Positions 4,852 through 46,811 of a stretch of 64,000 nucleotides of DNA are shown one piece after another. This stretch comes from Patescibacteria group bacterium (GTDB taxonomy: Bacteria; Patescibacteriota; Patescibacteriia; Veblenbacterales; UBA10138): the NCBI GenBank assembly GCA_041648575.1, contig JBAZOT010000006.1, positions 11,893 through 75,892 on the forward strand. The letters run 5' to 3'. The position numbers were made by a program, and so were the translations under genes. Below the pieces are notes generated by a model. That model had not been told where the DNA came from. It saw only the letters and a list, made by a program, of their open reading frames with translations, and searched no databases. Each line of letters begins with the position of its first letter. The first letter of the stretch is position 1.

Positions 4852-6780
4852 TTAATCATTAATTAAATTTAAATTTATCAATAACTCCTTTATTTCATCT
4901 GAATACTTTCCATTATTTAAATTTAGATATTTTGTAAATTTATCTTTGGCTCCTGGCAGGTCGCCTATACTGTACATCACTTTACCCCATGCTAAATAAA
5001 ATTCTGGTTTATTAGCTAACGACCTCTCCCCTTTGGCAAATAAATTTAGCAAAACTGGTAGTTGGGCATTATCAACACTAGACCAAATACTAAGCAAAGT
5101 TATCATTTCCTGATAATAAACAGGGTCAGCTAATCCTTGAGTACGACTTTTGTTATACCATTGAGCACTAGCCCATAATCCATTAACATCCTGCGTGCTC
5201 ATGGCCTTTATTAGTTTAGTTTTCCCAACAGCCGCTGAATAGTTGGGTTCATTACCATTTAAATTTGTTACTTTTATAAAATAACTTTCAGCTTGATCAA
5301 TTTTATTTGATAATAAACTAACTTCTCCTTTTTTTTCAGAAATATCTGCACGCCAAATATTAATATTATGAATCACTGGCCATAAAAAAATTATTAATAT
5401 AATAATCATAGCCCATATTTTTTTTAAATAATTATATGAATAATTATTATTAGTATCAATTTCAAATCTAAAAAATATGGCGATTAATAAGAATAAAAAT
5501 ACTAAACTAACTATATTATCAAAATTAAAAAACCCCATTAATAAATAACTAATCAGACTGGCAATTATACTCAAATAAAAAAAGAATTGATTGCCTGTTG
5601 AAGTTTTTAATTTTTGATATAATTGCTTAATAAATAAAATAATAATTAGTAAAAAGCCTAGTAGCAATAAACTGCCGCCAGTGACCATAAAATCAAGATA
5701 AATGTTGTGGGATCGGTCAAAAAGATTGGGTTCAATTACAAAAGGCGAAGGGTGATTTTGCGATAAAATATAAAATGTTTCCGGACCAAACCCCAACACT
5801 GGCCTTTGCTGCCAGGCATCAATAGCTATTTGCCACACCCACAATCTTACCCCCAAGCTATTGTTTTGTAAGTCTAGAGAATTATTTAAACGACTGCTAA
5901 CCCCTACCCAGTTCACGCTAAAAAATATCATGATTACCAACAATAATATTAGTAATAATTTTTTTATTGACAATTTATTAAATATAAATTTGTAACCATG
6001 CTTTATTGCTATTACCACTACTGTAAATACCACGACCGCTATTAGTGCTAACCACGCACTACGCGCTAAAGTAAAAACAATTGCTATAACTGAAACCATA
6101 CTACCAACTACCACCAACGATTTACTCCACAGGGATTTATAATTAGTAAAAGAATAAACAATCAATGGCAATACCATGACTAAATACATTCCTAAAAAAT
6201 TAGGATGGCCTAAAGTTGAAAACGACCGAATGGAGAAATCGCTAGTGGCTACCCGATAACCACGCTCAAAACCAGGCAAATCAACGCCCCAATGCTGTAA
6301 CATAGCATAACCGGCAACTATGGTTGTAACTATGGTTAAACCTAATAATAATTTACGAATTATGTTTCTATCAAATAAAATAAAACATAAATAATAAAAA
6401 ATATAAATATGCAGCCAAGTAAATAAGCCCTGCCATCTTTCATATAATCCCCAAATACTAACCGGCCTAAAAATTGAAAAATAAGTAGCTAATATTTGAA
6501 CAACCATCATAAAAGTAACAGCTAAATTTATCGGCTGTTTAAAAAAAGCTGTTAAATCTCGCTGACATAATTTTATGGTATTGTTTTGAAATAGCTTATA
6601 CAGTAAATATAAAATTAATGCCAGTTCCACACCCAAATTAAGGCAAGACACTTTAACAACTTCAAAAACATTATAAGTCCTAATATCAAATATTAACGGC
6701 AACAATAAAACAGTTGCCAATAAGCACCAAATTGACAATTTCTCAAAATTCAATCTGATTTTTTTAAAATAATTTACCAT
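4852..6780 (-). CDS. O-antigen ligase (Wzy_C)-like polytopic membrane protein with C-terminal TPR-like soluble domain
   Basis: 642 aa with >10 TM helices and a long loop typical of WaaL/O-antigen polymerase-like proteins. C-terminal ~170 aa hydrophilic TPR-like. Family assignment from architecture only. Confidence 0.5.
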   Translation of the reverse strand: MVNYFKKIRLNFEKLSIWCLLATVLLLPLIFDIRTYNVFEVVKVSCLNLGVELALILYLLYKLFQNNTIKLCQRDLTAFFKQPINLAVTFMMVVQILATYFSIFRPVSIWGLYERWQGLFTWLHIYIFYYLCFILFDRNIIRKLLLGLTIVTTIVAGYAMLQHWGVDLPGFERGYRVATSDFSIRSFSTLGHPNFLGMYLVMVLPLIVYSFTNYKSLWSKSLVVVGSMVSVIAIVFTLARSAWLALIAVVVFTVVVIAIKHGYKFIFNKLSIKKLLLILLLVIMIFFSVNWVGVSSRLNNSLDLQNNSLGVRLWVWQIAIDAWQQRPVLGFGPETFYILSQNHPSPFVIEPNLFDRSHNIYLDFMVTGGSLLLLGFLLIIILFIKQLYQKLKTSTGNQFFFYLSIIASLISYLLMGFFNFDNIVSLVFLFLLIAIFFRFEIDTNNNYSYNYLKKIWAMIIILIIFLWPVIHNINIWRADISEKKGEVSLLSNKIDQAESYFIKVTNLNGNEPNYSAAVGKTKLIKAMSTQDVNGLWASAQWYNKSRTQGLADPVYYQEMITLLSIWSSVDNAQLPVLLNLFAKGERSLANKPEFYLAWGKVMYSIGDLPGAKDKFTKYLNLNNGKYSDEIKELLINLNLIND

Positions 6781-6830
6781 TCAAATCATTGTCAAAAACA
6801 TAGGCTTCTATGCCTATGTTTTTGTTTTAA

Positions 6831-8048
6831 CTATTGAGTTCTAGGAAGATCTTTAGGCGGCGGAGGTGGTGGAGTACTGGTACCCCATTTTCTTTCTACG
6901 GTATTTAATTCGGTATTCCCTTTGTCATCAGACACCCTAACAATATAATACATTCCAGCAGTAGCCGGTCGTGATATTAAATACTTCATAACTTTTGTCG
7001 CCCAAATAGCACCCGGAACATCCCAGCTTATCCAAATCGGATTATTAAAGTTATAACTATAAGAGTGACTAGAATCTGACATGGGATACACCGATTCAAA
7101 TAACATGTACTTAACCGGGGTATTGTAGGAAATTTGCCCAGAGCCAATTAAATCAACTGCCGAGGAGAATTCAAAATTAGCATACCGAATATTAGGATTT
7201 GCTGGTTGTGGATACCAGGTTCCGCTGGCACTGCTAATTTTTGAATCAAAGGCGTTAATTTGGGATCCGGTTCCATACTGAATTGTTGTTTCCACAGCAA
7301 AATTTGTTTGAAGATGATTTGCTATCAATGCACTGGCAGACACTAAATGTTTCAAGCCGTCAGTGCCAATATAATAATAACTGGTTTGTCCTGAATATTT
7401 GATTAAAGTACCGGCTGGATATTTATTAGTAGTTATGGTAGAACCGATTTTATAATTTACAAAAAAAGGCGCTGGAATGTCAACTACTCTATTCTGCCAG
7501 TTATTACCATATAAAGTGGAGATTCTAATTTCACTATCCAACGCTCGCAAAGCACCACCAGGTTCAGTAGCATATACAGTTGGATTATTAGTTGCTTTAA
7601 CCAACCAAGTGCCTGGCCTAATAGTGATATTACCACCAATCGGATACTTATAAAGCTCGCTAGGAATGACCATTTCTACTTTTGAGAAATCAGCATACCA
7701 TGACTTATAAGTAATCTCGTTAGGAAAGACATATCTACTAACTCCATCAAAATAATACACAGCAGAGTTACCTGCTATCTTCGACAATCTGCCATTTGTT
7801 ACTGGATTAGCGGCTGGTACCACTTTGGATAAACCAGCAAACCGCGGGGGCGTACCATCGCCTAGCACCTTTCTAAACACATCGCTATCCTGTAGTTTTG
7901 AAACTGGTGCGATAATAGCCGCTATTGCCCCGCCTAAAAATAAGGTAGCAACTATAAGATACATCGCTGTAGCACTGACAGTTTTGGTAAGAGTAGCTGT
8001 AGCCAGTGGGTATTTCACCGGTTCATCGGAAAGATTATTCGTAACCAT
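6831..8048 (-). CDS. Secreted/surface protein with N-terminal signal anchor and proline-rich C-terminus (PPPPPPK)
   Basis: 405 aa, N-terminal TM (LIVATLFLGGAIAAIIA), Y/N/T/S-rich beta-like body, C-terminal poly-Pro. Confidence 0.4.
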   Translation of the reverse strand: MVTNNLSDEPVKYPLATATLTKTVSATAMYLIVATLFLGGAIAAIIAPVSKLQDSDVFRKVLGDGTPPRFAGLSKVVPAANPVTNGRLSKIAGNSAVYYFDGVSRYVFPNEITYKSWYADFSKVEMVIPSELYKYPIGGNITIRPGTWLVKATNNPTVYATEPGGALRALDSEIRISTLYGNNWQNRVVDIPAPFFVNYKIGSTITTNKYPAGTLIKYSGQTSYYYIGTDGLKHLVSASALIANHLQTNFAVETTIQYGTGSQINAFDSKISSASGTWYPQPANPNIRYANFEFSSAVDLIGSGQISYNTPVKYMLFESVYPMSDSSHSYSYNFNNPIWISWDVPGAIWATKVMKYLISRPATAGMYYIVRVSDDKGNTELNTVERKWGTSTPPPPPPKDLPRTQ

Positions 8049-8085: not shown

Positions 8086-9189
8086 TTAAATTTTAATATG
8101 AGTCCACTCACTAATAATTTTCTTTACATCATCTACATCCACCACAGTCATACCCAAGCCTTCTAGTTCCTGCTCATATTTTTCACGCTCAGCTATTAGC
8201 TTCGGCCGCGCTGCAATTTCTGTTTGTAAAATATTTTTGTCTATTTGCTGTATTTTAGTCCATAGTTCTGCTAAAGCTTTATTTTTGTCACGCGCCGCAC
8301 CATGCAAAGCCCCCACCACCACTTGATTAATATGCGATACTTTTACCATTGCTGCTGCCTCATCTATAACATCAATGGCTTTATCGGGCATATGCCTATT
8401 TTTTATATATTTGTCAGCCAACTGCGCTGCTGCCACAATCGCGCCATCGGTAAATTCTACTTTGTGATAAGATTTATATTTATCTTTAACGCCTTGTAAA
8501 ATTTTTATAGTATCATCTACTGACGGTTCTAATATCTCAACCATTTGAAAACGGCGCTCTAAACTTTCGTCTGGTTTAATATACTGTTCATATTCATTAG
8601 TAGTGGTAGCGCCAATCAGCTGCAAATCACCGTGCGCTAGGGCTGGTTTTAAAATATCAGAAAAATTTACCGCGCCCTCGGTTCCTCTAGACTGCATCAC
8701 CGTATGTATTTCATCAATAAATAAAATTATCTGCCTGGCAGTAGATGAAATTTCTTGTACCAATCTTTTAGCTCGCTCTTCAAATTCACCTCGGTATTTT
8801 GTTCCAGCCAAAAGTGACGCAACTTGCAGGGATAATACCCGCTTGTGCTGTAAAACTTCTGGTACGCTATTTTGAGTTATGCGCTGGGCTAAGCCCTCTA
8901 CAATAGCAGTTTTGCCCACTCCAGGAGCGCCCACCAATAACACGTTATTTTTGGTACGCCGCGATAATACTTGGGCCAAGCGTAATACCTCCTCTTCTCT
9001 GCCAATTACTGGATCGATCTTCCCATCACGGGCTAATTTCGTGAAATCAACAGAATATAAATCCAATACTGGCGTTCCGGTTTTTGATGTCCAAGACATA
9101 TTACTACCATTCTTCTGTTTCTGCCAATAATAATAAATTGCCCCTAAAATTATAAATATCAACACAATCGCCAGGGTGGATAAACTCAT
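8086..9189 (-). CDS. Membrane-anchored AAA+ ATPase of Clp/Hsp100 type, first (D1) nucleotide-binding module only
   Basis: N-terminal TM helix. Then [63 protein letters not shown] (ClpA/B/C D1 signature and Walker A), [11 protein letters not shown] (Walker B) and GATT sensor. Only 367 aa, with no D2 module and no ClpP-binding loop visible. Confidence 0.75.
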
Positions 9190-9290
9190 ATATTAATTAT
9201 ATAACACAATAAATTATTATTATATAAGCTGCTAAAATCGGTTGATGATAATGCTAATTTTGCATTTATCATCACAGGAAGGCCAATTAA

Positions 9291-12200
9291 TTAATCCACC
9301 ATGGGTAATTTAGGCGGCGGTTCAGCTTTATTATGCACCACTACCCCTCCAGCAATATAAGTATGATAGGAGTTAACCTCTAGGTTATAAACCTGAACTA
9401 CTTTTTTAACTATTTCTATAGAAGTAATCTTTTCCGGTTTACCTTGGAAATTAAGTAGTTTGTCTCCCATCTTTAACTGGCCTATCTCTACCCATTGGCC
9501 ATCTGAATAAACAAGGTGATTGGCAGTTACCTCTAACTGACCATTGATAATTAAGTATTGATCGGTAGTATGTTTAAAAACCTTTCCTACCTTATCTGGT
9601 TTCAACTCTTTGGTGATTTCACTAAAGGCTAGTATAGTATCGCCTACCTGTACTTGTTCAATTGGTTTAGTGGTGCCATCAACCATTAAAATAGGGGTAC
9701 TAGAAAGGAAACAGGTATATCCTTTAGCTACAGAAATGGTTATAGTTTGAGAGCTTGCGCTACCTGCATTATCCGTGGCATTAAAAATAACAGAATATTT
9801 TCCAGCAGTAGTTGGCGTCCAAGTAAAGGTACGGACAATAGAATCAGTTCCACTAATAGGCTCAGATAAAGTAGCACCAGGAGGAAGTTGGGAAGTGGTA
9901 ATTTGTATAAGTTTACCTGGAAACTCTGCCCTTACATCAAAATTCAGACCTTCCCGTTCGGTTGTTGACTTATTACCAATAGGGTAAAAGTATAGCTGAT
10001 TAAGGACATTAATAGTAACATTTTGACTAGTATGATTTCCATAACTATCCGTTACTGAGAAAATTAGGTCATGCAGTCCAATGTCAGTACTAGTGGGACG
10101 CCAACTAAATATATGAGTAGCGGAGTTAAAACTTGCTCCCGGGGGTAATAAATCTACTGAATAGGTTAAAGCATCACCTTCTGGGTCGCTGGCATTTACA
10201 GTTATGGATAAGGTATCACCAAAATTAATGGATTTGTCACTTATTAGTGTGATGTAAGGCGATTGATTCCCTGGAAGCTCACTGAAATAAATATCCCAGT
10301 TGCCATTACGATTATCCTGCCAGACAATACCATAAGGAGAAATAGCCGGGTACGTTTCAGCATTCCAAGGGGGACCAAAAGTAACTTGTTGTTCTTGACC
10401 AGTGGCTAAATCATAAACATAAATATCCCAGCTGCCATTACGATTATCCTGCCAGACAATCCTGTTTCCTAAAATTACAGGATCGGTTTGGGCTTTGGTA
10501 TTAATAGTAATCTGCTGTTCAGTATCAGTTGCAATATCATACATATAAATATCTGCGTTACAGTCTGTGTCGCTCCATGGTGGCGAATAACACTCTCCAT
10601 TGCTATCATTACGAAGATCGCCCCAAACAACTCGTTGCTCAGAAGTAGAAACACCTTTACCACGGCCACTTTTATAAGGCTTAGCTCCTGATGCAATTTG
10701 TCGTTCCATATTGTTAGTAAGATTATAAATACCAAGTCGAGATTCGCTTAATGCATCAATATATTCTCTAAAAACAATAAATTTCTCCGAAACATCAGCA
10801 TGGAATATTGATCCGGGAACAGATTTGATTAGCCGTGACTTATCGTTGAGGTGATCGTAAAGATACAGATCCCTCTGTGCTGATATGCCACCATTATAAG
10901 TTAAATTATCACCTAAAACAGCTACAGAAGGATAACCCGGGTTAAATACATGTTCGACAAGTTGAGTAGCGAGATTATAAATCTTAATGGTATTATTTTC
11001 ATACCATGCAGCAATCTTATCCGAAATAGCGGGTGGATAGAGAGAAGTAGAGTCTGAAATAGTTTGTATTTTTTTCGAAAGAAGATCGTATAAATAAAAA
11101 TAACCTACAGAGTTGGTTGTAAACTCCGCAAAGACAATTTTCCCTAGAGAGGAAATTTTAGGAAATTGTTGATGTCTTGTGTTGGAGGTTATCCGGATAC
11201 TATCATCAAAGTAAAGAGTTTTGATGTCCTGAAACTGGTAACCGTCCTGTGTAGTAACCACTAATTTTATGACGTACTCTCCGGGAAGCAAGGCCTCTAT
11301 ATTCCAGTTGTTTACCAATATACCATTATTTACCGGAGTAAATATCGGATCATTAATGGGTAACCAATCTACCGGTGCCTTGCCTGCACCCCAAAAAAGT
11401 TGGTAATTTAAAAAGGTACTGCCAAAGGCATTTCCGCGAATTGGTAAAGAGGTTACATCGCTTTTCATCAGGATGGATTCAGAGATAGGGCTGGAGATAC
11501 TGGCATAAGATACTTGATTTAGGCCTAGTGCCCTTGATAGATTAATTAATCCCCCGCCGGTATATACGTCAAAGCCAGGAGTAGCTAAATCATCAGCTGA
11601 GCCACGCAACACCTGCCGAATATCCTCATTGGTAAAAGAGGATTTCTGGACTAAAATTAAAGCCGCTGCTCCTGCCACATGAGGAGCGGCCATACTAGTA
11701 CCACTGGACCGGTAGTATTGAGCATTGACATCAAACGCCGGTACGAAATTTGCTCCATTTGTATAACCACGAGCTCCTTTATACATATCGGTGCCAGCTG
11801 CTCTTAAAGAGAGAATTTGCACTCCGGGTGCCGCCACATCAATTTTATCTCCCCAATTTGAAAAATAGGCGCGGGCATTTTCGTTGTCTGTTGCAGCTAC
11901 AGTTATCACTTGTGGCAGCTTTGCCGGAAAGAAATAATTAACATCCAAATTACTGTTTCCAGCCGCCGCAACTAAAATTACGCCTTGTGAGTAAGCATAC
12001 TCAACTGCCGCAGCAATCAACTGGGAATTACCTTGCCCGCCCCAGCTCATATTGATAACATCTGCCCCGTTATCAGCCGCATAAGTAATTGTCTCGGCAA
12101 GGGCATTATCATATCCACTACCACTACCATCTAATCCCTTTACCGGCATTATCTTGCAGCCAGGACATACACCCGCAACGCCTAGGTTATTATCGGTTTT

Positions 12201-13187
12201 TGCAGCAATAGTTCCAGCTACGTGAGTACCATGGCCATTATCATCCATTGGATTGTTACTGTTGTTAACAAAATTATAACCGCTAATATCATCAACATAG
12301 CCATTACCATCATCATCAATATTATTATCAGGGACTTCCCCAAGATTATTCCAAATATTATCCTGTATATCCGGATGATTATAATCAACACCTGTATCAG
12401 AGACGGCTACGATAATATTAGAACCGCCACTAGTGACAGCCCAGGCTTCTTCCATTTTAATCTTCTCTAATCCCCAAAGATTAGAATAAGATTGCCCCCA
12501 AGCACCGGCTAACCAAGTTCCTTTTTGATTTGGGTCTACATAGGTATCATTAGGCAACGTAAATACAGTAGCTATATAATTAGGTTCACAATACTCTACA
12601 TTAGGATCTTTTTTATATTCCTCACAGATAGCCTGTATATCGGCACTCTTGTCTTCTAATTCCAACTTATAAATATTTGTCAAATTGGGAACCTTGGCAT
12701 TTTTAGGAGCACGCTTAGCTCTTTGAGAAAAATTAGCTTTGGTTTCAGTAAAAAGCTGTTTATAAGACTTATTAGTTTGCAGCTGTTTGTCTTTCAGTTC
12801 TTTAAATACTGGGGCTATATCTTTAACCTTATATTTAACATTGAGGGTATTAACAGATGACAAGCCAGTGCGACTGGGGCTTAGTTTCATAGTTTGAGAA
12901 TTTAGATTACGATCAATTGAAGCAGCATTCTTCTCTTTAAATTTAATAATGATTTCTCCTGGAACATTAGTAGCTTTATCCTGCGAGGTGTAAGTGCTAT
13001 CCACAAACGGTCCGGCATATACTAAAGAGTTAACTGGGATTCCGGCACGGGGAAGAATATTACTTAATTTTGTTACTACTAAAGTAGCAGCCAAAGCAGT
13101 GCTAACCAAAAAAACCATGACTGCTACGGCCACTACGGTATGGGTATCAATTTTTGTAGCAACTTTTTGAGGAGTTATGGTTATCAT
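9291..13187 (-). CDS. Giant surface protein: S8 subtilisin-like peptidase + PD40/TolB-like beta-propeller repeats + two Ig/cadherin-like domains + C-terminal Hint (bacterial intein-like) domain
   Basis: Signal anchor. S8 triad motifs VAVSDTGVDYNHPDI / HGTHVAGTIAA / GTSMAAPHVAGAAALI. Repeats IVWQDNRNGSWDIYVYDLATGQEQQVT. C-terminus CFLSSTPILMVDG...TANHLVY...YNLEVNSYHTYIAGGVVVHN, i.e. Hint N-terminal Cys block and terminal HN, followed by only 12 aa. Confidence 0.8.
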   Translation of the reverse strand: MITITPQKVATKIDTHTVVAVAVMVFLVSTALAATLVVTKLSNILPRAGIPVNSLVYAGPFVDSTYTSQDKATNVPGEIIIKFKEKNAASIDRNLNSQTMKLSPSRTGLSSVNTLNVKYKVKDIAPVFKELKDKQLQTNKSYKQLFTETKANFSQRAKRAPKNAKVPNLTNIYKLELEDKSADIQAICEEYKKDPNVEYCEPNYIATVFTLPNDTYVDPNQKGTWLAGAWGQSYSNLWGLEKIKMEEAWAVTSGGSNIIVAVSDTGVDYNHPDIQDNIWNNLGEVPDNNIDDDGNGYVDDISGYNFVNNSNNPMDDNGHGTHVAGTIAAKTDNNLGVAGVCPGCKIMPVKGLDGSGSGYDNALAETITYAADNGADVINMSWGGQGNSQLIAAAVEYAYSQGVILVAAAGNSNLDVNYFFPAKLPQVITVAATDNENARAYFSNWGDKIDVAAPGVQILSLRAAGTDMYKGARGYTNGANFVPAFDVNAQYYRSSGTSMAAPHVAGAAALILVQKSSFTNEDIRQVLRGSADDLATPGFDVYTGGGLINLSRALGLNQVSYASISSPISESILMKSDVTSLPIRGNAFGSTFLNYQLFWGAGKAPVDWLPINDPIFTPVNNGILVNNWNIEALLPGEYVIKLVVTTQDGYQFQDIKTLYFDDSIRITSNTRHQQFPKISSLGKIVFAEFTTNSVGYFYLYDLLSKKIQTISDSTSLYPPAISDKIAAWYENNTIKIYNLATQLVEHVFNPGYPSVAVLGDNLTYNGGISAQRDLYLYDHLNDKSRLIKSVPGSIFHADVSEKFIVFREYIDALSESRLGIYNLTNNMERQIASGAKPYKSGRGKGVSTSEQRVVWGDLRNDSNGECYSPPWSDTDCNADIYMYDIATDTEQQITINTKAQTDPVILGNRIVWQDNRNGSWDIYVYDLATGQEQQVTFGPPWNAETYPAISPYGIVWQDNRNGNWDIYFSELPGNQSPYITLISDKSINFGDTLSITVNASDPEGDALTYSVDLLPPGASFNSATHIFSWRPTSTDIGLHDLIFSVTDSYGNHTSQNVTINVLNQLYFYPIGNKSTTEREGLNFDVRAEFPGKLIQITTSQLPPGATLSEPISGTDSIVRTFTWTPTTAGKYSVIFNATDNAGSASSQTITISVAKGYTCFLSSTPILMVDGTTKPIEQVQVGDTILAFSEITKELKPDKVGKVFKHTTDQYLIINGQLEVTANHLVYSDGQWVEIGQLKMGDKLLNFQGKPEKITSIEIVKKVVQVYNLEVNSYHTYIAGGVVVHNKAEPPPKLPMVD

Positions 13188-13360: not shown

Positions 13361-14140
13361 CTACCCCCACCACACTACTGTATTATTTAACCTTTTAATA
13401 CCTACAACTATACCTATTAATATAGCTATGCCAATTAATAAAGCCAGGCTGTAGCTAATAAGCGGAGCAAAAAAATTAAGCGCGCCAGCCAGCCAATTGG
13501 TTATTATTCCACCCAGTGATTGCCCAACCAATTCTGCACCAAAAACAATTAATATCACCAGCAAACTCATAGCAGTTAACCCGGCTGCAGTGTGACCTAA
13601 ATCATGATTAGACGGCGCCAAATGAGCGCCAATGGCTATGGCTAAATATAAAAACAGCCAAGTCTGCCAAGCGGTAAATGCTAAAGCTTGCCAAAATAAA
13701 ACTACAAAACTCCACCAAGCAGTAAAATAATTAAGGCTGATCGTTAAAAAATTAACGTCTGGTGCAATTAATACCGACGGAGCCTCAAGAGGAATTGCCG
13801 GGACCAACAATATTGCCAATACCCATAAAATAAACGATCCGCCTAAAAAAGGAAAAATTGAAATTAATACCAGCGTTGCAGGATTGCCAGTTGCTTTATG
13901 AATTACCGAACCCAAAACACTTCCACCACTGGCAGTTTTAGGCAACAAACTAAAACCAGTAACTTTGGTAAAAGTTAGTAGCGCACCTAATAAATGTGAT
14001 AATTCATGAATCACAACTCCTGGCCACAGCAATATTTGATACCAGCGTTGAGAAAGAATAAAAGACAACCAATAATTAACCAAGCGGGATAATAATAAAA
14101 CGCCTAATAACATTATTAAAAACGAGAGCAACAAAATCAT
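13361..14140 (-). CDS. Polytopic membrane protein with HExxH motif (putative intramembrane metallopeptidase)
   Basis: 259 aa, about 7 TM helices, VVIHELSHLLGALL inside a helix. FPFLGG occupies the position of the S2P LDGG motif but lacks the Asp. Low confidence. Confidence 0.4.
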   Translation of the reverse strand: MILLLSFLIMLLGVLLLSRLVNYWLSFILSQRWYQILLWPGVVIHELSHLLGALLTFTKVTGFSLLPKTASGGSVLGSVIHKATGNPATLVLISIFPFLGGSFILWVLAILLVPAIPLEAPSVLIAPDVNFLTISLNYFTAWWSFVVLFWQALAFTAWQTWLFLYLAIAIGAHLAPSNHDLGHTAAGLTAMSLLVILIVFGAELVGQSLGGIITNWLAGALNFFAPLISYSLALLIGIAILIGIVVGIKRLNNTVVWWG

Positions 14141-39833: not shown

Positions 39834-40886
39834 TTATTTATCAAAAAATTTAATATCTCTTGCTATCTCATCGACTATTGCTTCATATTCTTTACTACCA
39901 AACCACGAAACTCCATAGACATAACTATCTTGGAAAATATAAATTATGCCTCTGGTATAATCATAAAAATTATCCCAAGTAATCCTATATGCCTCGTGAT
40001 TATCAATAGGGCTTAGGCTCACTCTTTCCTTGACGGTTGGCATCGGCGGAACACTATCCTTTTCCTCAGCAGAAATATCTCCCTCTATTTCTTTCATTAT
40101 AAAATTATCAACCGACAAACCAATTCTATCAATTACTCCGAAATTCAAAGATGGCTGCCACAATTCGTTATCTACAAATTCTTGTTCACAAACTCTAACT
40201 GACATTAAAGCACTACCCCAACCTCCGGGACCACAATCTAAAAACTTTGTTGGGTATTTTAATTCAAACCCATATTCCTCATTCCGATAAGTTTTCCAGG
40301 TGGGGATATCGATTATTGATGTCAAACTCGGCTCAATGAATTTGAAGGTGGAGAGGATTTGATTAAAAATGTCATCATACTTTCTATCAAGTCTGAAACC
40401 AAAATATAAAGTTGCTTTATAGTCACCTTGCACGATGTAGGCTAAATACTGCTCAGAACCGGGCGCACGCGTCTGCACCACCACCTCACCATTTTTTGTA
40501 CTAACCGTTCGAAGAGTTTCGTAAGTAAACCAAACAGGAAGAGACGACGCCGACTCCTTTTGATTCTTATAATTAATGACAAAAATAGTAATGCCGCCTT
40601 CTATGGGTATTTGTAATTCTGGTTGGAGAGAAGGAGCTAAATAAACTCCGTTATTTATTAATTTCAGATACCACAGCGAGGGATACTCAAACTCAAACCC
40701 ATATTGCTCATTACGGTAGGTTTGCCAAGTGGCGGTATCAAGGGTATTATCGGTTATAATCGGCTGTTCAATAATTTGATTCTGCTTTTCCAAAAGCACA
40801 CTACAGCCCGCAGTTATAAACAAAACAAACAATATAGCAATAATTGTAATGATTGATGAATTGAGATAATGATTTTTCATATTCAT
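39834..40886 (-). CDS. Lipoprotein, YRNEQYGF-repeat family (paralog 1, two repeats)
   Basis: Signal peptide plus lipobox ITAGCS. WQTYRNEQYGFEFEYPSLW and WKTYRNEEYGFELKYPTKF modules. Confidence 0.5.
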   Translation of the reverse strand: MNMKNHYLNSSIITIIAILFVLFITAGCSVLLEKQNQIIEQPIITDNTLDTATWQTYRNEQYGFEFEYPSLWYLKLINNGVYLAPSLQPELQIPIEGGITIFVINYKNQKESASSLPVWFTYETLRTVSTKNGEVVVQTRAPGSEQYLAYIVQGDYKATLYFGFRLDRKYDDIFNQILSTFKFIEPSLTSIIDIPTWKTYRNEEYGFELKYPTKFLDCGPGGWGSALMSVRVCEQEFVDNELWQPSLNFGVIDRIGLSVDNFIMKEIEGDISAEEKDSVPPMPTVKERVSLSPIDNHEAYRITWDNFYDYTRGIIYIFQDSYVYGVSWFGSKEYEAIVDEIARDIKFFDK

Positions 40887-41919: not shown

Positions 41920-42687
41920 TTAATTATTTTGACAATCTTCAGGACAATTAAGAGGGCCGCAGTCGGTAGTGGCTATACCGCCACCAACATTCGAGGGAAC
42001 GCATCTTTCGTAATCTTCACAAACGTCATCACCGCAAACCGCGCATTGTTCTGTTATAACACCATTGCGCTCATAGTTGCCACAACGACTATCTGAGCTA
42101 TTACTCGGCTCAATGAATTTGAAGGTGGAGAGAAAAATTTTAAATTCATCTTCAATGCCCGTATCATAACCACTAGCAAAAATAAAATATTGGTTAGTAC
42201 CTTGATTTACTTGCGCTTCCAAATAAATTCGCCCCCGATTATACTCTTCTGTACTCTTTGCAGAGGTTAAGACCACCTTAATACCACCAACTTCAATCTG
42301 TTCAGGCAACTTATATTGAACTGACTCTTCTTGGGGCCCGTTAACCATAATGGGATTAATATTAATACCGAAGAAGGTGTCGGTATTAGAAAGACCAATG
42401 GGGTGCCAAAAAATACTATCATTCTCATCAAAATCCTTTACAAAACTATTCGGATACTTCACCTTAAATCCATACTGCTCATTACGGTAAGTTTTCCAAT
42501 CCGTTGTATCAGTTGAACTAATTGGATTGAGTTGATTCCGTTGATTTAAATCTACTTGCTTTTGCAAAATCACCGCACAACCAGCAGCTATGAGCAAAAC
42601 AAAGACTATGGTTATGGTGGCAATAAAGGATGAAGTAAAGAGATATTTTCTTAGATTCATATAATTAGCGCTCTTTCTGGTTGTCAT
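41920..42687 (-). CDS. Lipoprotein, YRNEQYGF-repeat family (paralog 2) with Cys-rich C-terminus
   Basis: Lipobox IAAGCA, WKTYRNEQYGFKVKYPNSF module, C-terminal CAVCGDDVCEDYERCV...CPEDCQNN. Confidence 0.5.
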   Translation of the reverse strand: MTTRKSANYMNLRKYLFTSSFIATITIVFVLLIAAGCAVILQKQVDLNQRNQLNPISSTDTTDWKTYRNEQYGFKVKYPNSFVKDFDENDSIFWHPIGLSNTDTFFGININPIMVNGPQEESVQYKLPEQIEVGGIKVVLTSAKSTEEYNRGRIYLEAQVNQGTNQYFIFASGYDTGIEDEFKIFLSTFKFIEPSNSSDSRCGNYERNGVITEQCAVCGDDVCEDYERCVPSNVGGGIATTDCGPLNCPEDCQNN

Positions 42688-42796: not shown

Positions 42797-44227
42797 TCAT
42801 TTTGTTTTTTGATTTTTTAATTCTAGCCCCAATTCATCTAATTGCCCCTGAGTTACTTCTGACGGTGCACCCATTAAAGGGTCACGGACATCGCCAGTTA
42901 AGGGAAAGGCAATTACTTCGCGAATATTTTTCTCCCCTACTAAAACCGCTATCAGGCGATCCAAACCTGGAGCAACCCCCCCATGTGGCGGCACGCCGTA
43001 TCGGAACGCTTCAATTAAATGGCTGAATTGCTGTTTTTGCTCAACTGTAAAACCAATTAAATCCCAAATTTTTTCCTGAACCAGAGAATCGTGAATTCTA
43101 ATACTACCGCCACCCACCTCATAACCATTAAGCACTAAATCATGCTGATACGAATGTGCTTTTCCCGGATCAGAATCCAACAGCGGCAAATCCTCTTCTT
43201 TGGGCGCAGTAAACATATGATGCGACGGCGCCCACTGACTTTTTCCAGAACCATGAAAAAAATCTTCCTGAGTTTGTTTAGTAAACAATGGAAAATCAAC
43301 TACCCAGGTAAAAGCCAACTCGCTAGGATCGTTTTTATCTTTTCTTAAATCCGGCTTATCTGTGTCATACTTAGTCATTACTTCATCCCATTTTAACCGC
43401 GGCCACGGTGTAAAAGTAATTTTTTTATCTGGCAATAATTTTTTAACTAACGAAGTAAACATTTCTTCTGTCAGCTGTAAAATTTCCTCTTGGGTAACAA
43501 ACGACATTTCCATATCAATTTGATAAAATTCGCCTGGGGATCGGTCCGCTCGCGCATCTTCGTCTCTAAAGCACGGCGCAATTTGAAAATATCTTTCTAT
43601 ACCCGCCACCATTAATAATTGTTTGTATTGTTGGGGGCTTTGAGGTAAGGCAAAAAACTTTCCCTGATGCACTCGTGATGGTACTAAATAATCGCGCGCA
43701 CCCTCGGGTGTAGATTTAGATAACATCGGGGTTTGGATATATGTAAAACCGCGGTCGGTTAAATAATCAATTACATATTTAATTACATTGGAACGTAATT
43801 TTATATTGCATGCCATGCGCTGGTGGCGCAAATCAAGATAACGATATTTAAGCCGCAGTTCTTCTGAAGCTTGCCTTTCTTCATTATCAATTTCAAATGG
43901 TGGGGTTTCAGATTCGCTGATAATTTCAACAGATGAAGCCAATACTTCTACTTTACCACTTGGTAAATTAGGATTTTCATTGCCCTTTTTCCTAACTTGT
44001 ACTTTTCCTTTTATCGCCAAAACAAACTCGGGGCGAATTTTGGGCATAGCTTCACGACCCACATCATCCAATTCTGCTGGAGCTAACACCACTTGCATCA
44101 AGCCCGTCATATCGCGCAAATCAATAAAGGCAATTTTACCCATATTCCGTCGAGCGTTCACCCAGCCTTTAAGTAAAATCTCTTTACCCTCCTTATTTAT
44201 AGCGTCGTTAATAAAAATTCGGTTCAT
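42797..44227 (-). CDS. aspS: Aspartyl-tRNA synthetase
   Basis: Class II aaRS: N-terminal OB (KEILLKGWVNARRNMGKIAFIDLRD), motif 2 FRDEDARADRSPGEFYQIDMEMSF, motif 3 GGGSIRIHD...GVAPGLDRL. 476 aa (short, non-discriminating-type length). Confidence 0.9.
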   Translation of the reverse strand: MNRIFINDAINKEGKEILLKGWVNARRNMGKIAFIDLRDMTGLMQVVLAPAELDDVGREAMPKIRPEFVLAIKGKVQVRKKGNENPNLPSGKVEVLASSVEIISESETPPFEIDNEERQASEELRLKYRYLDLRHQRMACNIKLRSNVIKYVIDYLTDRGFTYIQTPMLSKSTPEGARDYLVPSRVHQGKFFALPQSPQQYKQLLMVAGIERYFQIAPCFRDEDARADRSPGEFYQIDMEMSFVTQEEILQLTEEMFTSLVKKLLPDKKITFTPWPRLKWDEVMTKYDTDKPDLRKDKNDPSELAFTWVVDFPLFTKQTQEDFFHGSGKSQWAPSHHMFTAPKEEDLPLLDSDPGKAHSYQHDLVLNGYEVGGGSIRIHDSLVQEKIWDLIGFTVEQKQQFSHLIEAFRYGVPPHGGVAPGLDRLIAVLVGEKNIREVIAFPLTGDVRDPLMGAPSEVTQGQLDELGLELKNQKTK

Positions 44228-45377: not shown

Positions 45378-46811
45378 TTAGTTAGCTGGTGACCGGACTG
45401 GCTTAAATATTGGCTCTACTAATTTTACTAGTGGCGCGTTTTGCAGTTTACAAATCCATCCTAACTCTTGTCCTTGAGGTGTACTCACAACGACACCATA
45501 AGCTGGACCTCCTGGCATATAAATGGACGAATACGATAACCCCAGCGAGTCTAGCCATACCCGAGCAGAAGCTTCAGTAGTTCCGTCTTTAAATGAAACC
45601 TGTAGCTTACCTGGCTCGTATACTTTCGTAAAGCCATCAGGTGTTGTAACGTCAAAATTGACATACCGTTTTTTCCATTCATTTATACAGGCCGATATAT
45701 CTGGAGTAGAAGAGTTAGAGCTCGTTTCATCAATAAATTGGACAATTTTACAAGCACCTACAGCACATTTAGTGGGAAAGTACTGAATACAGCTCTCCGC
45801 AGTCGGGGGCGGTAACTCCGGACATGCGACTCCTGGGGTTAGCTGTTTTTTGAGTTGCACCTGCTTGGCGCGCTCTTGATTATAAGCTGGCAGGTAACTT
45901 CGATTAATTGCATTAGTTGGACAATTATTTTGGCACACATCGTTGAGTGCGTAAACCGCCGTGCAGTCACTGTCCTGTGTACACTGATACCAGCCTGCAT
46001 TGCTGGCACTTGTAAGTGGCTCAATAAATTTGAAGGTGGAGAGGATTTGGTTATAAATTTTTTGATATTTCTCAAGTTCATTTCCTGAGGGACCACTTCC
46101 ATATGTGCTAGAAAGTTTCCCATCAATATAATTTCTTGTACCTCCGTCGAAAATGATCGAATATTGTTTCCCATTTTTTACAAAGCTGGTTTGAGTGCAT
46201 TCTTCTGACCAACAACCAATACTCAAGTCTCCCTTAAGTTTATATTGGGACGCTTGTTCTCCTGCCACTGAAAGTATTTTTTCAGCACTAGCTAGCGTTC
46301 CGTATTGCCATCCAGGATTATCTATTACAACAGATACGTTATAAAAATATTTGTTCGTAACTTTAGAGTTGGGAATGGCCACCCCAGCTGTTTCCGCGCT
46401 CTCAAACTCGGCATATATATCTCCAGAATCAGAATTGATAATTTTCCATTCAGATGGATACTTCACCTCAAACCCATACTGCTCATTGCGGTAGGTTTGC
46501 CAGATGGAAGTATCAACATCGGCATTTTCTTCCATTGGCTGCCATCCACTCCTAAAACCCCTACCACACACCTCTTCAAAAGTTTTACCCTCTGGAATAA
46601 CATCACACATAGCAATACCACATGACTTACCGGTTGCCTGCTCACACTCTTCCTGAGATAAATATGTTTGCGGTGCTATACGCACGGCGTCGGGTGACTC
46701 TTTATTTTGATACTGCTTTTCCAAAAGCACGCTACAGCCAGCGGCTATGAATAAAATAAACAACACAGCAATAACTGTGATGACTGATGAATTGAGATAA
46801 TGGTTTTTCAT
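45378..46811 (-). CDS. Lipoprotein, YRNEQYGF-repeat family (paralog 3), Cys-rich
   Basis: Lipobox IAAGCS, WQTYRNEQYGFEVKYPSEW, more than 20 Cys. 477 aa. Confidence 0.5.
   Translation of the reverse strand: MKNHYLNSSVITVIAVLFILFIAAGCSVLLEKQYQNKESPDAVRIAPQTYLSQEECEQATGKSCGIAMCDVIPEGKTFEEVCGRGFRSGWQPMEENADVDTSIWQTYRNEQYGFEVKYPSEWKIINSDSGDIYAEFESAETAGVAIPNSKVTNKYFYNVSVVIDNPGWQYGTLASAEKILSVAGEQASQYKLKGDLSIGCWSEECTQTSFVKNGKQYSIIFDGGTRNYIDGKLSSTYGSGPSGNELEKYQKIYNQILSTFKFIEPLTSASNAGWYQCTQDSDCTAVYALNDVCQNNCPTNAINRSYLPAYNQERAKQVQLKKQLTPGVACPELPPPTAESCIQYFPTKCAVGACKIVQFIDETSSNSSTPDISACINEWKKRYVNFDVTTPDGFTKVYEPGKLQVSFKDGTTEASARVWLDSLGLSYSSIYMPGGPAYGVVVSTPQGQELGWICKLQNAPLVKLVEPIFKPVRSPAN

What the first reader, a model, noticed from the sequence alone, without database searches (positions are those of the whole stretch)
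8086..13187. 1298-aa S8 protease/beta-propeller/Ig/Hint protein next to a membrane-anchored Clp D1-only ATPase
The giant protein ends in a bona fide Hint/BIL domain (C..., ...HN) with only 12 residues after it. Autoproteolysis would therefore release or rearrange almost nothing, unlike toxin-delivering Hint proteins. The immediately downstream gene encodes a single-TM protein with only the first AAA+ module of a ClpA/B/C-type unfoldase (VIGREEEV, Walker A/B) and no D2. Both architectures are unusual. Their adjacency, in a co-directional block that also holds a Pro-rich secreted protein and an O-antigen-ligase-like/TPR protein, suggests a surface-protein processing or quality-control module.
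Basis: partly seen in the sequence, partly recalled or inferred. Interest (0 to 1): 0.55.

Follow-up and report, generated by a model that had tools for sequence, protein, structure and literature searches.

The report
Surface protease beside membrane-tethered Clp ATPase
Two neighbouring genes of an ultra-small Patescibacteria bacterium, a giant secreted protease ending in a self-cutting Hint domain and a membrane-tethered half-size Clp ATPase, are both real but are not a fixed pair. In 8 of 9 lineages sampled the ATPase instead sits directly upstream of genes for secreted proteins with an uncatalogued N-terminal leader, which hints at an undescribed export or membrane-extraction system.

Summary
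ORF 9291-13187(-) is a 1298-aa protein: leader, prodomain, S8 subtilase, beta-propeller, two Ig-like domains and a Hint domain with a 12-residue tail. ORF 8086-9189(-) is a 367-aa protein with one TM helix, a ClpC-type D1 AAA+ module and a short M-like hairpin. It ends at the D1/D2 junction, and no D2 exists anywhere in the window.

Neither architecture is a one-off. The TM-D1 ATPase is a strongly conserved Patescibacteria family. A Hint within 22 residues of the C-terminus is the usual arrangement for this A-type BIL/PT-HINT subfamily on secreted proteins.

The proposed pairing is not conserved. The giant gene occurs in 3 of 6 close relatives, on either side of the ATPase, and in none of the distant lineages. 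In one relative it is flanked by a 97-nt direct repeat, like an inserted cassette.

The conserved neighbour of the ATPase is the gene just downstream. In 8 of 9 lineages that gene carries a distinctive extended leader: a Thr/Lys-rich n-region followed by 'TKLAVAT..LAGGxAxA'.

Best reading: an accessory surface protease with a self-removing Hint cap, next to a membrane-tethered unfoldase that acts on leader-bearing proteins. The mechanism is inferred, not shown.

The parts
9291..13187 (-). 1298-aa secreted multidomain S8 subtilase with a C-terminal Hint domain. NCBI name: MFA4937117.1, 'S8 family serine peptidase', Patescibacteria group bacterium.
13053..13187 (-). N-terminal leader of the giant (aa 1-45). 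It has a Thr/Lys-rich n-region (ITITPQKVATKIDTHT), a hydrophobic core and an 'STALA' c-region. It matches the family leader only weakly.
   Evidence: 6.7 bits on a 90-aa excerpt; 2.4 bits in the full ORF
12573..12980 (-). Putative subtilase prodomain (about aa 70-205). Only residues 180-203 have profile support (Fervidolysin_NPro-like).
   Evidence: the boundaries are inferred
11556..12425 (-). Peptidase_S8 catalytic domain (aa 255-544), with triad D264/H319/S498 and N411.
10263..11240 (-). Beta-propeller region (about aa 650-975). Profile support covers aa 875-975 (beta_prop_Msarc and TolB-like repeats, 'WQDNRNGxWDIY'); the rest is inferred.
   Evidence: 132-nt internal repeat at 10287-10460
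9732..10244 (-). Two Ig-like domains. He_PIG/Big_9 covers aa 982-1061. The second covers about aa 1066-1152 and has weak PKD/Big_13 hits.
9330..9713 (-). Hint domain of A-type BIL / PT-HINT kind (aa 1159-1286): C1159, T1221xxH1224, H1285-N1286.
9294..9329 (-). 12-residue Pro-rich tail, KAEPPPKLPMVD. The +1 residue is Lys. The model gives it low confidence.
8086..9189 (-). 367-aa membrane-anchored ClpC-type D1-only AAA+ ATPase. NCBI name: MFA4937116.1, 'AAA family ATPase'.
9112..9177 (-). N-terminal TM helix of the ATPase (aa 5-26), followed by KQK. The ATPase domain is therefore inferred to be cytoplasmic.
8320..9075 (-). AAA+ large domain plus AAA_lid_9 (aa 39-290). Motifs: Walker A K93/T94, pore loop K131-Y132-R133-G134, Walker B D159/E160, Arg fingers R212/R213. 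All are invariant in 32 family members.
8158..8298 (-). Helical hairpin (aa 298-344) that aligns with the short M-domain of ClpC.
6831..8048 (-). 405-aa secreted protein with no known domain and a Pro-rich C-end. It is the conserved downstream partner of the ATPase in this clade and starts 37 nt after the ATPase stop.
7887..7994 (-). Family leader of the 405-aa protein (aa 19-54). It scores 24.4 bits with its own clade left out of the model, and it is the only strong leader match in the 64-kb window.
6793..6824 (.). 13-bp palindromic hairpin between the stop of the 405-aa gene and the start of the Wzy_C gene. It is a likely end of the ATPase/405-aa transcription unit.
4852..6780 (-). 642-aa Wzy_C (O-antigen-ligase-like) membrane protein. 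The order ATPase, leader protein, Wzy_C recurs in the distant lineage L117.
13361..14140 (-). 259-aa multi-TM protein with a HELSH motif. It lies directly upstream of the ATPase in close relatives that lack the giant gene.

Best explanation
The flagged stretch holds two functionally separate genes on a Patescibacteria chromosome.

(1) The 1298-aa protein is an accessory, lineage-variable surface or secreted subtilase. It is exported through an N-terminal leader and is shown to have an intact S8 triad. It ends in an A-type BIL/PT-HINT domain with every catalytic residue present but no +1 nucleophile. By analogy with characterised BIL domains, Cys1159 would form a thioester with Thr1158 and Asn1286 would cyclise. 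The Hint and its 12-residue tail would then be shed from the passenger as a single-turnover, self-removing C-terminal cap. The thioester would be resolved by water or by an amine. This chemistry is inferred.

(2) The 367-aa protein belongs to a widespread, strongly conserved Patescibacteria family. An N-terminal TM helix replaces the Clp N-domain. It is followed by a complete ClpC-type D1 motor and a short M-like hairpin, with no D2 and therefore no ClpP-docking loop. Its substrate-entry face is inferred to point at the membrane.

The conserved genomic partner of this ATPase is not the giant protein. It is the co-directional gene just downstream, which in 8 of 9 lineages encodes a secreted protein with an unusual extended leader. 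That leader has a 15-30-residue Thr/Lys-rich cytoplasmic n-region, a 'TKLAVAT..L' h-region and a 'GGxAxA' c-region.

I propose that the ATPase grips that cytoplasmic tail. It would either assist or hold these precursors at the membrane, or extract the leader or the protein from it. The giant gene is a cassette that has landed next to this hub and carries a diverged form of the leader. The association is shown; the mechanism is inferred.
For: Architecture:
-.
- No D2 in the window.

ATPase family:
- 119 of the top 120 clusters are 346-413 aa long.
- 109 of 120 have an N-terminal TM helix.
- All but a few truncated members end at the ..VD..D[IV]..V[IV]..W motif.
- Walker A and B, the pore-loop Tyr and the Arg fingers are invariant in 32 members that share only 54-60% identity.
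- The AF2 model shows a TM helix, a linker, the AAA+ fold and a helical hairpin. The best structural matches are ClpC and ClpB.

Hint domain:
- The closest solved relative is the C. thermocellum BIL domain 2LWY, E 1e-23.
- The model has pLDDT 91. TM-scores are 0.85 to the Tetrahymena BUBL BIL2 domain and 0.83 to 2LWY.
- Among 49 terminal Hint copies, C1 is kept in 100%, block B T/H in 98/100% and HN in 100%. The +1 residue is never C, S or T; it is Lys in 65%.
- 38 of 55 single-Hint relatives end within 22 residues of HN.
- Nearly all of those relatives have signal peptides. Their passenger domains include S8, C25, C1, Ig, FG-GAP, beta-helix and pilin-like domains. Named examples come from Omnitrophota and Patescibacteria.
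- BIL domains lack the +1 nucleophile and give mainly cleaved products (PMC7664689).

Synteny:
-.
- The giant is flanked in L001 by a 97-nt repeat, 89% identical. The repeat covers the 5'UTR, the start codon and the n-region, and its spacing equals the length of the gene.

Leader:
- In leave-one-clade-out profile scans, the ORF just downstream of the ATPase is the top hit in every held-out locus except L004. Scores range from 10 to 34.5 bits.
- In the prospective test locus L117, the ORF after the ATPase scores 23.4 bits.
- There were 0 hits of 10 bits or more among 7,882 control ORF segments.
- The mature parts of the leader proteins are mostly unrelated. ATPase identity between the deep lineages is 52-60%.
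- In the window, only the 405-aa protein matches strongly.
Against: - Only nine ATPase lineages could be examined. The leader was noticed by eye before it was modelled.
- The control loci are mostly not from Patescibacteria, so the background frequency of the leader in such genomes is known only from the ~150 kb of flanks held here.
- In L004 the leader gene lies 5.5 kb away on the other strand.
- The giant's own leader matches weakly: 2.4-6.7 bits in the window, against 2 of 7,882 control segments reaching 6.5 bits.
- Adjacency across lineages could be inherited synteny of a fast-evolving gene rather than a functional coupling.
- No biochemical data exist. Isolated D1 rings of Hsp100 proteins are, to my knowledge, weak motors.
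- Hint cleavage is inferred from conserved residues only.
- Whether the leader is cleaved by signal peptidase was not tested.
Confidence: 0.5

Rival explanations
1. First reader's model. The giant Hint protein and the D1-only ATPase form a dedicated pair, in which the ATPase processes or quality-controls this particular surface protein.
For: The two genes are adjacent and co-directional in the window and in L010 (90% relative), and adjacent again in L001 although in the opposite order. The giant has a Thr/Lys-rich n-region resembling the family leader. In L001 it carries the exact leader of the resident downstream gene.
Against: The giant is absent next to the ATPase in L002, L011/12 and L013/14, which are 68-73% identical relatives. 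It is also absent in all five deep lineages. The ATPase family is far more widespread than the giant's orthologues: a metagenome scan found only distant propeller relatives, with no ATPase or Hint nearby. The two genes are separated by 101 nt of AT-rich DNA with promoter-like sites.
Confidence: 0.12
2. The ATPase is simply the lineage's general ClpB/ClpC-type chaperone, reduced to one ring and tethered to the membrane. The leader-bearing neighbour is inherited synteny with no functional meaning.
For: Its motifs are those of a general unfoldase. The wider neighbourhood is otherwise not conserved. HSP20 lies upstream in two lineages, L003 and L008. No literature on the family was found.
Against: Adjacency to a leader-bearing gene survives 40-48% sequence divergence of the ATPase, while every other neighbour changes. 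The adjacent proteins have unrelated mature domains and often occur as several tandem leader genes. That pattern is what signal/machinery pairs look like.
Confidence: 0.25
3. The terminal Hint is a Hedgehog-like transferase rather than a mere self-removing cap. The Thr1158-Cys1159 thioester is attacked by a cell-wall or protein amine, or by a lipid. This would covalently anchor the protease after its N-terminal prodomain and leader are removed.
For: Its position at the extreme C-terminus of many unrelated secreted proteins resembles that of sorting and anchoring signals. Subtilase maturation removes the N-terminal part, so retention at the cell would need a C-terminal device (inference). The best structural match is the Tetrahymena BUBL BIL2 domain, which to my knowledge has been proposed to ligate ubiquitin-like domains to amines. 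Hedgehog HhC is a structural relative, TM-score 0.72-0.75.
Against: There is no sterol-recognition-like or other adaptor region after the Hint; only 12 residues follow, modelled with low confidence. Characterised BIL domains give mostly hydrolytic cleavage (PMC7664689). No acceptor is known.
Confidence: 0.2
4. The giant protein is a decayed polymorphic toxin. The PT-HINT once preceded a C-terminal toxin domain that has been lost, and the Hint is now vestigial.
For: The best Pfam match is PT-HINT. One relative is annotated 'polymorphic toxin-type HINT domain-containing protein'. In polymorphic toxins the HINT sits just before the toxin (PMC3482391).
Against: All catalytic residues are kept across 49 terminal copies. 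The short tail is the norm, in 38 of 55 proteins. The tail KAxPPPKLPxV[DE] is conserved in three orthologues even where the linker before the Hint differs. No toxin or immunity cassettes follow the gene; the next gene is the ATPase. The passenger is a protease, not RHS or filamentous repeats.
Confidence: 0.08
5. The pair is an IetAS-like anti-phage defence system, made of an AAA ATPase plus a subtilase.
For: Weak PADLOC hits: the ATPase to IetA (E 1.6e-8) and the giant to IetS (E 5.8e-7).
Against: The hits are generic AAA and S8 similarity; the same ATPase matches ClpB at E 3e-111. The protease is exported, the pair is not conserved, and the setting is a housekeeping envelope block.
Confidence: 0.02

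Closest known systems
ClpC (B. subtilis, S. aureus; Hsp100/Clp class I), D1 ring plus M-domain
   Same: 43-48% identity over residues 26-365, corresponding to ClpC 146-486. This covers Walker A and B, the pore loop KYRGEFE, the ERRFQ arginine fingers, AAA_lid_9, a ClpC-length helical hairpin and the 'W(T/S)G' junction motif.
   Different: There is no Clp_N domain; a TM helix takes its place. There is no D2 ring, so no ClpP-binding loop and no second motor. The protein is membrane-anchored and restricted, among named hits, to Patescibacteria apart from one MAG labelled Kapabacteria.
Msp1/ATAD1 and FtsH (membrane-anchored single-ring AAA+ extractases; own knowledge)
   Same: The topology is the same: an N-terminal TM anchor with one cytoplasmic AAA+ ring close to the membrane. 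This is the basis of the proposed extraction or holding mechanism.
   Different: They belong to different AAA+ clades. The similarity here is to Clp D1, not to the classical-clade AAA module. There is no M41 protease domain as in FtsH. Function was not tested.
A-type bacterial intein-like (BIL) domains (C. thermocellum BIL, PDB 2LWY) and Pfam PT-HINT
   Same: Cys1, block B TxxH and a C-terminal His-Asn are present, and there is no +1 Cys/Ser/Thr. It is mini-intein sized (128 aa). It is the best sequence match and a top structural match in the PDB. It occurs on variable secreted proteins, as described for BILs (PMC7765530).
   Different: It sits at the very C-terminus with only a 3-22-residue Pro-rich tail. 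Described BILs are internal to a protein, and PT-HINT precedes a toxin domain.
Hedgehog C-terminal autoprocessing (Hog) domain
   Same: A C-terminal Hint follows a secreted passenger. The fold is the same (TM-score 0.72-0.75 to 1AT0 and 6TYY). An N-S acyl shift at Cys1 would detach the passenger.
   Different: There is no sterol-recognition region. His-Asn is retained, so C-terminal cleavage is possible. It is bacterial, and any transfer acceptor is unknown.
Cell-envelope subtilases of Gram-positive bacteria (e.g. lactococcal PrtP, streptococcal C5a peptidase; own knowledge)
   Same: These are large exported S8 proteases with a prodomain, a catalytic domain, beta-rich accessory domains and a dedicated C-terminal module.
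   Different: Their C-terminal module is an LPXTG sortase signal. Here it is a Hint domain, and the accessory domains are a TolB-like propeller and He_PIG Ig domains.
Accessory Sec system substrates with extended signal peptides (KxYKxGKxW type, SecA2/SecY2) and YSIRK/ESPR leaders (own knowledge)
   Same: The concept is the same: a subset of exported proteins carries a long, distinctive n-region, and genes for a dedicated ATPase lie beside substrate genes.
   Different: The ATPase here is a Clp-type AAA+, not a SecA paralogue. The leader sequence is unrelated and matches no NCBIfam or Pfam model. No dedicated channel gene was seen.

Membership tests
Hsp100/Clp class I (ClpA/ClpB/ClpC) | First AAA+ module (D1) with Walker A and B, pore-loop Tyr, Arg fingers and AAA_lid_9 | tested here: met
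Hsp100/Clp class I (ClpA/ClpB/ClpC) | Second AAA+ module (D2; AAA_2 plus ClpB_D2-small) | tested here: not met
   The ORF ends at the D1/D2 junction. A tblastn search with D2 found nothing in the window. Scores against the full-length NCBIfam models are far below their cut-offs.
Hsp100/Clp class I (ClpA/ClpB/ClpC) | N-terminal Clp_N (Clp repeat) domain | tested here: not met
   There is no PF02861 hit. Residues 1-38 are a TM helix plus a linker.
Hsp100/Clp class I (ClpA/ClpB/ClpC) | Middle (M) coiled-coil domain | tested here: inconclusive
   Residues 298-344 form a helical hairpin that aligns with the short M-domain of ClpC, but with weak sequence similarity and pLDDT of 63-75.
A-type BIL / PT-HINT | N-terminal Cys (or Ser) nucleophile and block B TxxH | tested here: met
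   C1159 and T1221/H1224, invariant in 46 aligned terminal-Hint proteins.
A-type BIL / PT-HINT | C-terminal His-Asn with no Cys/Ser/Thr at +1 | tested here: met
   H1285-N1286-K1287. The +1 residue is never C, S or T in 49 terminal and rarely in 196 internal copies. The definition comes from PMC7765530 and PMC7664689.
A-type BIL / PT-HINT | Autocatalytic N- and C-terminal cleavage | not testable with these tools
   Inferred from conserved residues only.
Polymorphic toxin (PT-HINT context) | Toxin domain directly after the HINT, with an immunity gene downstream | tested here: not met
   Only 12 residues follow HN, and the next gene is the ATPase.
Intein | +1 nucleophile and insertion within a conserved site of a host protein; often a homing endonuclease | tested here: not met
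   The +1 residue is Lys, the position is terminal, and there is no endonuclease domain.
Hedgehog Hog domain | Hint followed by a sterol-recognition region | tested here: not met
   There is a 12-residue tail modelled with low confidence and no SRR.
Subtilase S8 | Asp-His-Ser triad in S8 order, with Pfam PF00082 above its cut-off | tested here: met
   D264, H319, S498; 226 bits against a cut-off of 21.8.
IetAS defence system | Specific IetA and IetS proteins as a conserved pair | tested here: not met
   Only weak generic hits, and the pair is not conserved.
FtsH | Membrane anchor, AAA module and M41 HExxH protease in one chain | tested here: not met
   There is no protease domain. The neighbouring HELSH membrane protein is conserved only in the close clade.

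The most novel reading that the evidence does not exclude
The TM-anchored Clp-D1 ATPase and the 'T/K-rich n-region + TKLAVAT..LAGGxAxA' leader together define a previously undescribed, Patescibacteria-specific protein-sorting system. In this reading a membrane-tethered AAA+ ring recognises the cytoplasmic tail of a dedicated class of extended signal peptides. It would drive or gate export of variable surface proteins, or extract them or their leaders from the membrane. New cargo genes such as the S8-Hint protease would join by cassette insertion at the leader.
Probability: 0.3. Interest if true: 0.8.

Novelty: new variant of a known kind. Interest (0 to 1): 0.6.

Why it matters
Patescibacteria are ultra-small, mostly uncultured bacteria that live on other cells, so their surface proteins are central to their lifestyle. 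Three points are of interest.

1. A one-ring, membrane-tethered Clp ATPase is conserved across the group. This challenges the view that class I Hsp100 proteins need two rings, and it offers a minimal natural D1 motor for study.

2. Its persistent pairing with an uncatalogued extended leader is the kind of genomic signature that led to the discovery of the sortase, exosortase and accessory-Sec systems. It is directly testable.

3. Hint domains placed at the very C-terminus of secreted proteases, adhesin-like proteins and pilin-like proteins appear in Patescibacteria and Omnitrophota. This suggests a bacterial counterpart of Hedgehog-type C-terminal autoprocessing whose purpose is unknown. It could be release, activation or covalent anchoring.

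Tried and rejected
- **Frameshifted clpB/clpC.** Rejected: there is no D2 in any frame of the window, and the family length is uniform.
- **Split-FtsH idea.** The upstream 259-aa HELSH membrane protein would be the protease partner of the ATPase. Homologues sit next to the ATPase only in the close clade, and the M50 similarity is faint at E 8.8. Dropped to a side note.
- **IetAS-like defence.** Only generic hits.
- **Genome-contig scan with the ATPase alignment.** It was flooded by full-length ClpC and ClpB from other phyla. All 80 loci were useless for synteny, though they later served as controls.
- **Metagenome-contig scan with the C-terminal half of the giant.** It returned only distant propeller relatives, with no Hint or ATPase nearby.
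- **Viral-contig scan with the ATPase.** Nothing found.
- **Leader profile against 5.8 billion proteins.** The profile is too short to reach significance; one hit at E 4.
- **Literature searches.** Hint with Patescibacteria or Omnitrophota, and ClpB or ClpC with CPR, Parcubacteria or Patescibacteria, gave nothing relevant.
- **DNA repeats flanking the giant in the window.** None found, unlike in L001.
- **Leader DNA of the L010 giant against the L010 735-aa gene.** Only a 17-nt near-identical stretch, which is not conclusive.
- **NCBIfam scan of ten leader proteins.** No N-terminal signal model matched.

Full report
**1. What is in the sequence**

The window is a low-GC (about 37-40%) chromosomal stretch whose genes mostly run on the minus strand. 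NCBI labels the two flagged products MFA4937117.1, 'S8 family serine peptidase', and MFA4937116.1, 'AAA family ATPase', from a Patescibacteria group MAG. The rest of the window is ordinary housekeeping: aminoacyl-tRNA synthetases, triosephosphate isomerase, P-type ATPases and tRNAs.

ORF 9291-13187(-) encodes 1298 residues. Its parts are:
- a Thr/Lys-rich N-terminus followed by a hydrophobic segment;
- a weak prodomain match;
- Peptidase_S8 at 255-544 with D264/H319/S498;
- a TolB-like / beta_prop_Msarc propeller, supported for 875-975;
- two Ig-like domains (He_PIG/Big_9);
- PT-HINT at 1168-1286.

The Hint starts at C1159, has T1221xxH1224, and ends H1285-N1286. K1287 follows, and the protein has 12 residues after N1286.

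ORF 8086-9189(-) encodes 367 residues. It has one hydrophobic helix, then KQK, then a Clp D1 module. It matches ClpB, ClpA, ClpG and ClpV models only over D1. It aligns with B. subtilis ClpC 146-486 at E 1e-93, up to the WTG motif that precedes D2. No D2 is encoded anywhere in the window.

**2. The ATPase is a family, not a fragment**

A search of 5.8 billion proteins returned a top list of which 119 of 120 clusters are 346-413 aa long. Source names, where given, are Patescibacteria, Parcubacteria or Magasanikbacteria, with one MAG labelled Kapabacteria. Of these, 109 of 120 have an N-terminal TM helix followed by Lys/Arg; most exceptions look N-terminally truncated. All but a few truncated members end at the same ..VD..D[IV]..V[IV]..W motif.

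In 32 members that share only 54-60% identity with the query, Walker A (K93/T94), the pore loop (K131-Y132-R133-G134), Walker B (D159/E160) and the arginine fingers (R212/R213) are invariant. The AF2 model (pLDDT 79) shows a TM helix at 5-26, a low-confidence linker, the AAA+ large and lid domains, a helical hairpin at 304-344 and a final helix. Its best structural matches are ClpC, then ClpB and Hsp104.

It is therefore a catalytically intact ClpC-type D1 ring in which a membrane anchor replaces the N-domain. It lacks D2 and hence the ClpP-docking loop. I found no paper describing it, but the searchable library is incomplete.

**3. The terminal Hint is also a family trait**

A profile of the Hint region finds 21,422 representative proteins at E <= 1e-10. 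Among the best 150, 38 of 55 single-Hint proteins end 6-22 residues after His-Asn. Their tails are often Pro-rich and resemble the one here, for example KLAPPKLPAVN, KAAPPKAVN and KAAPPPRYVQ.

In the 49 terminal copies, Cys1, block B Thr/His and His-Asn are 98-100% conserved. The +1 residue is Lys in 65% and never Cys, Ser or Thr. These proteins almost all start with a signal peptide, a TM helix or a prepilin-type N-terminus. Their passengers include S8, C25 and C1 proteases, He_PIG/Big_9/PKD, FG-GAP, cadherin-like, beta-helix and N_methyl pilin domains. Named examples are from Candidatus Omnitrophota and Patescibacteria.

The nearest solved relative by sequence is the C. thermocellum BIL domain 2LWY (E 1e-23). 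The AF2 model (pLDDT 91) superposes on the Tetrahymena BUBL BIL2 domain (TM-score 0.85) and on 2LWY (0.83), and less well on mini-inteins and Hedgehog HhC (0.72-0.75). The tail is modelled with low confidence.

By the published definition, the domain meets the sequence criteria of an A-type BIL: His-Asn is present and there is no +1 nucleophile. Such domains give mainly cleaved rather than spliced products (PMC7765530; PMC7664689). Unlike polymorphic toxins, where HINT sits just before the toxin (PMC3482391), nothing follows it here.

The N-terminal reaction would detach the Hint from a 1158-residue passenger through a thioester.

**4. The pair is not syntenic**

Gene order in the relatives, with percent identity of their ATPase to the window's:
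- **Core block in close relatives:** EamA, 328-aa, 259-aa TM protein, ATPase, ~405-aa protein, Wzy_C, UppS. It is seen in L002 (68%) and L011/12 (73%), and partly in L013/14 (73%).
- **Window and L010 (90%):** the giant lies between the 259-aa gene and the ATPase. The L010 copy has a third Ig domain and is 1394 aa long.
- **L001 (80%):** the giant lies after the ATPase.
- **L002, L011/12, L013/14:** the giant is absent.
- **Five deep lineages (L003, L004, L006/7, L008/9, L117; 52-60%):** the giant is absent.

In L001 the giant is bracketed by a 97-nt direct repeat, 89% identical. The repeat comprises 26 nt of upstream sequence, the start codon and the leader n-region (MNDLPPN.TVQ.K.KTKT). It occurs once in front of the giant and once in front of the next gene, 3974 nt apart. 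This is the footprint of a cassette inserted by duplication or recombination at the leader.

A metagenome scan with the giant's C-terminal half found only remote propeller relatives. The giant is therefore an accessory, mobile-in-place surface gene, not an obligate partner of the ATPase.

**5. What the ATPase is consistently next to**

While comparing neighbours I noticed that the gene just downstream of the ATPase begins, in lineage after lineage, with the same kind of N-terminus. It has a 15-30-residue Thr/Lys/Ser/Val-rich n-region, then 'TKLAVATxxLxxAGGxAxA'. The last part reads like an h-region plus a GG-AxA c-region, so the whole looks like an extended signal peptide.

*Leave-one-clade-out scans.* I scanned all stop-to-stop segments of each held-out locus with a profile built from the other clades.

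| Held-out locus | Top hit | Score (bits) |
|---|---|---|
| window | 405-aa ORF, 6831-8048 | 24.4 |
| L010 | ORF just downstream of the ATPase | 24.0 |
| L001 | 320-aa gene after the giant | 25.2 |
| L002 | ORF just downstream | 25.1 |
| L011 | ORF just downstream | 10.0 |
| L013 | two ORFs in tandem downstream | 16.7 and 11.1 |
| L014 | three ORFs in tandem downstream | 16.7, 14.8 and 11.1 |
| L003 | ORF just downstream | 19.8 |
| L006 | 912-aa gene two genes downstream; the ORF just downstream is second | 22.4 and 16.8 |
| L008 | ORF just downstream | 34.5 |
| L004 (exception) | ORF 5.5 kb away on the other strand | 27.0 |

The L004 hit has a mature part homologous to the L003 downstream protein.

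*Prospective test and control.* Locus L117 was fetched afterwards and was not used in training. The 81-aa ORF after its ATPase scores 23.4 bits and is followed by a Wzy_C gene, as in the window. In 7,882 ORF segments from 102 unrelated loci there was no hit of 10 bits or more.

*Other observations.*
- The mature parts are mostly unrelated: the p405 family, Flg_new_2/He_PIG repeats, a NosD-like beta-helix, and others with no match.
- In the window, only the 405-aa protein matches strongly among 18 ORFs with an N-terminal hydrophobic segment.
- That protein starts 37 nt after the ATPase stop with no hairpin between them. A 13-bp palindromic hairpin follows its own stop.
- No Pfam or NCBIfam model covers the leader.

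*The giant's own leader.* It matches only weakly: 6.7 bits on an excerpt and 2.4 bits in the full ORF. In L001, however, the giant carries the resident leader outright.

**6. Mechanism**

Shown:
- the domain content;
- conservation of the catalytic residues in both proteins;
- the variable presence and position of the giant gene;
- the repeat-flanked insertion in L001;
- the statistical association of the ATPase with leader-bearing genes.

Inferred for the giant: it is exported and matures as a subtilase, and its BIL-type Hint removes itself and the tail. The thioester at Thr1158 would be hydrolysed or passed to an amine. Whether this releases, activates or anchors the protease cannot be decided here.

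Inferred for the ATPase: in Hsp100 rings the N-terminal face of D1 is the substrate entrance (established knowledge of ClpB and ClpC structures). With a TM helix about 15-25 residues upstream of D1, that entrance would face the membrane. That is where the Lys-rich n-regions of the leader proteins would sit. I therefore favour a role in gripping these tails. The purpose could be to hold or hand over precursors, or to pull leaders or whole proteins out of the bilayer, as Msp1 and FtsH do for other clients. I give the overall account about 0.5, and the specific 'dedicated sorting system' reading about 0.3.

**7. Comparison and novelty**

The ATPase works like, and is homologous to, ClpC D1. It fails the class I Hsp100 definition on D2 and the N-domain, so it is a new variant and not a member in the full sense. 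The Hint meets every sequence criterion for an A-type BIL/PT-HINT, but in a terminal, toxin-less position that the literature I could search does not discuss.

The leader-ATPase coupling has no described counterpart that I could find. The nearest concept is an accessory secretion ATPase paired with extended signal peptides.

Overall this is a new variant of known kinds, with a credible chance of marking a new system.

**8. Limits**

- Only nine ATPase lineages were available.
- The leader profile is too short for database-wide statistics.
- The controls are mostly from other phyla.
- Everything about activity is inference.

Noticed in passing
window 13361-14140 (-): A 259-aa protein with about 5 TM segments, a HELSH (HExxH) motif at residues 45-49 and a later NHDLGH. 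Its only similarity is a faint Peptidase_M50 hit (E 8.8). It lies directly upstream of the ATPase, with an 18-nt gap, in relatives that lack the giant gene. It may be an intramembrane metalloprotease.
   Followed up: partly
window 6831-6875 and 9294-9329 (-): The 405-aa protein ends ...TPPPPPPKDLPRTQ and the giant ends ...KAEPPPKLPMVD. The L002 orthologue of the 405-aa protein ends ...PKPSYPTVD. Terminal-Hint relatives end similarly (KLAPPKLPAVN, KAAPPKAVN). This may be a shared short Pro-rich C-terminal motif, but it is too short and low in complexity to evaluate.
   Followed up: partly
L001 11110-11206 and 15084-15180: A 97-nt direct repeat, 89% identical, covers the 5'UTR, the start codon and the leader n-region of two consecutive genes and brackets the 1278-aa S8-Hint gene. 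It implies that the database gene call (start at 11157) is 21 nt short; the true start is probably 11136 (MNDLPPNM...).
   Followed up: yes
public proteins P0137, P0139, P0153, P0156, P0163, P0167 and others: Many relatives carry 3-13 tandem Hint copies. Often each copy ends HNKGGG..., followed by a Gly-rich stretch and a hydrophobic segment. This multi-Hint architecture was not examined further.
   Followed up: no
public proteins P0138, P0147, P0206, P0207, P0218, P0237, P0265: Several proteins combine type IV prepilin-like N-termini (GFTLVEIM and similar; the N_methyl family was matched by 4 of the 46 proteins scanned) with a terminal Hint domain. Pilin-like proteins with a self-cleaving C-terminal cap were unexpected.
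   Followed up: partly
window 48429-52285 (-): Three consecutive genes have prepilin-like N-termini: 602 aa (N_methyl plus CarboxypepD_reg), 207 aa and 474 aa. This is probably a pseudopilin or type IV pilus minor-pilin cluster.
   Followed up: no
window 39834-40886, 41920-42687, 45378-46811 (-): Three paralogous lipoprotein-like genes; two have weak PsbP_2 matches. Two have near-identical N-termini (MxxKNHYLNSS.IT.IA.LF.LFI.AGCSVLLEKQ). They are interleaved with two class II aminoacyl-tRNA synthetase paralogues at 42797-44227 and 47020-48309.
   Followed up: no
L003 2831-5218 and L008 5052-7506: An HSP20 gene followed by a VanW/PG_binding_4 gene lies upstream of the TM-ClpD1 ATPase in two deep lineages. 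In L008 a ClpP gene lies two genes downstream on the opposite strand.
   Followed up: no
L117 9276-10762 and window 4852-8048: The gene order ATPase, leader protein, Wzy_C (O-antigen-ligase-like) recurs in two lineages whose ATPases are only 60% identical. In L117 the leader protein is just 81 aa long, a leader plus a Pro/Lys-rich tail.
   Followed up: partly
window 10287-10460 (-): A 42-nt repeat, 98% identical, recurs at 132-nt spacing inside the propeller-coding region (WQDNRNGxWDIY blades). This points to recent blade duplication or gene conversion. The same repeat is present in L001 and L010.
   Followed up: no
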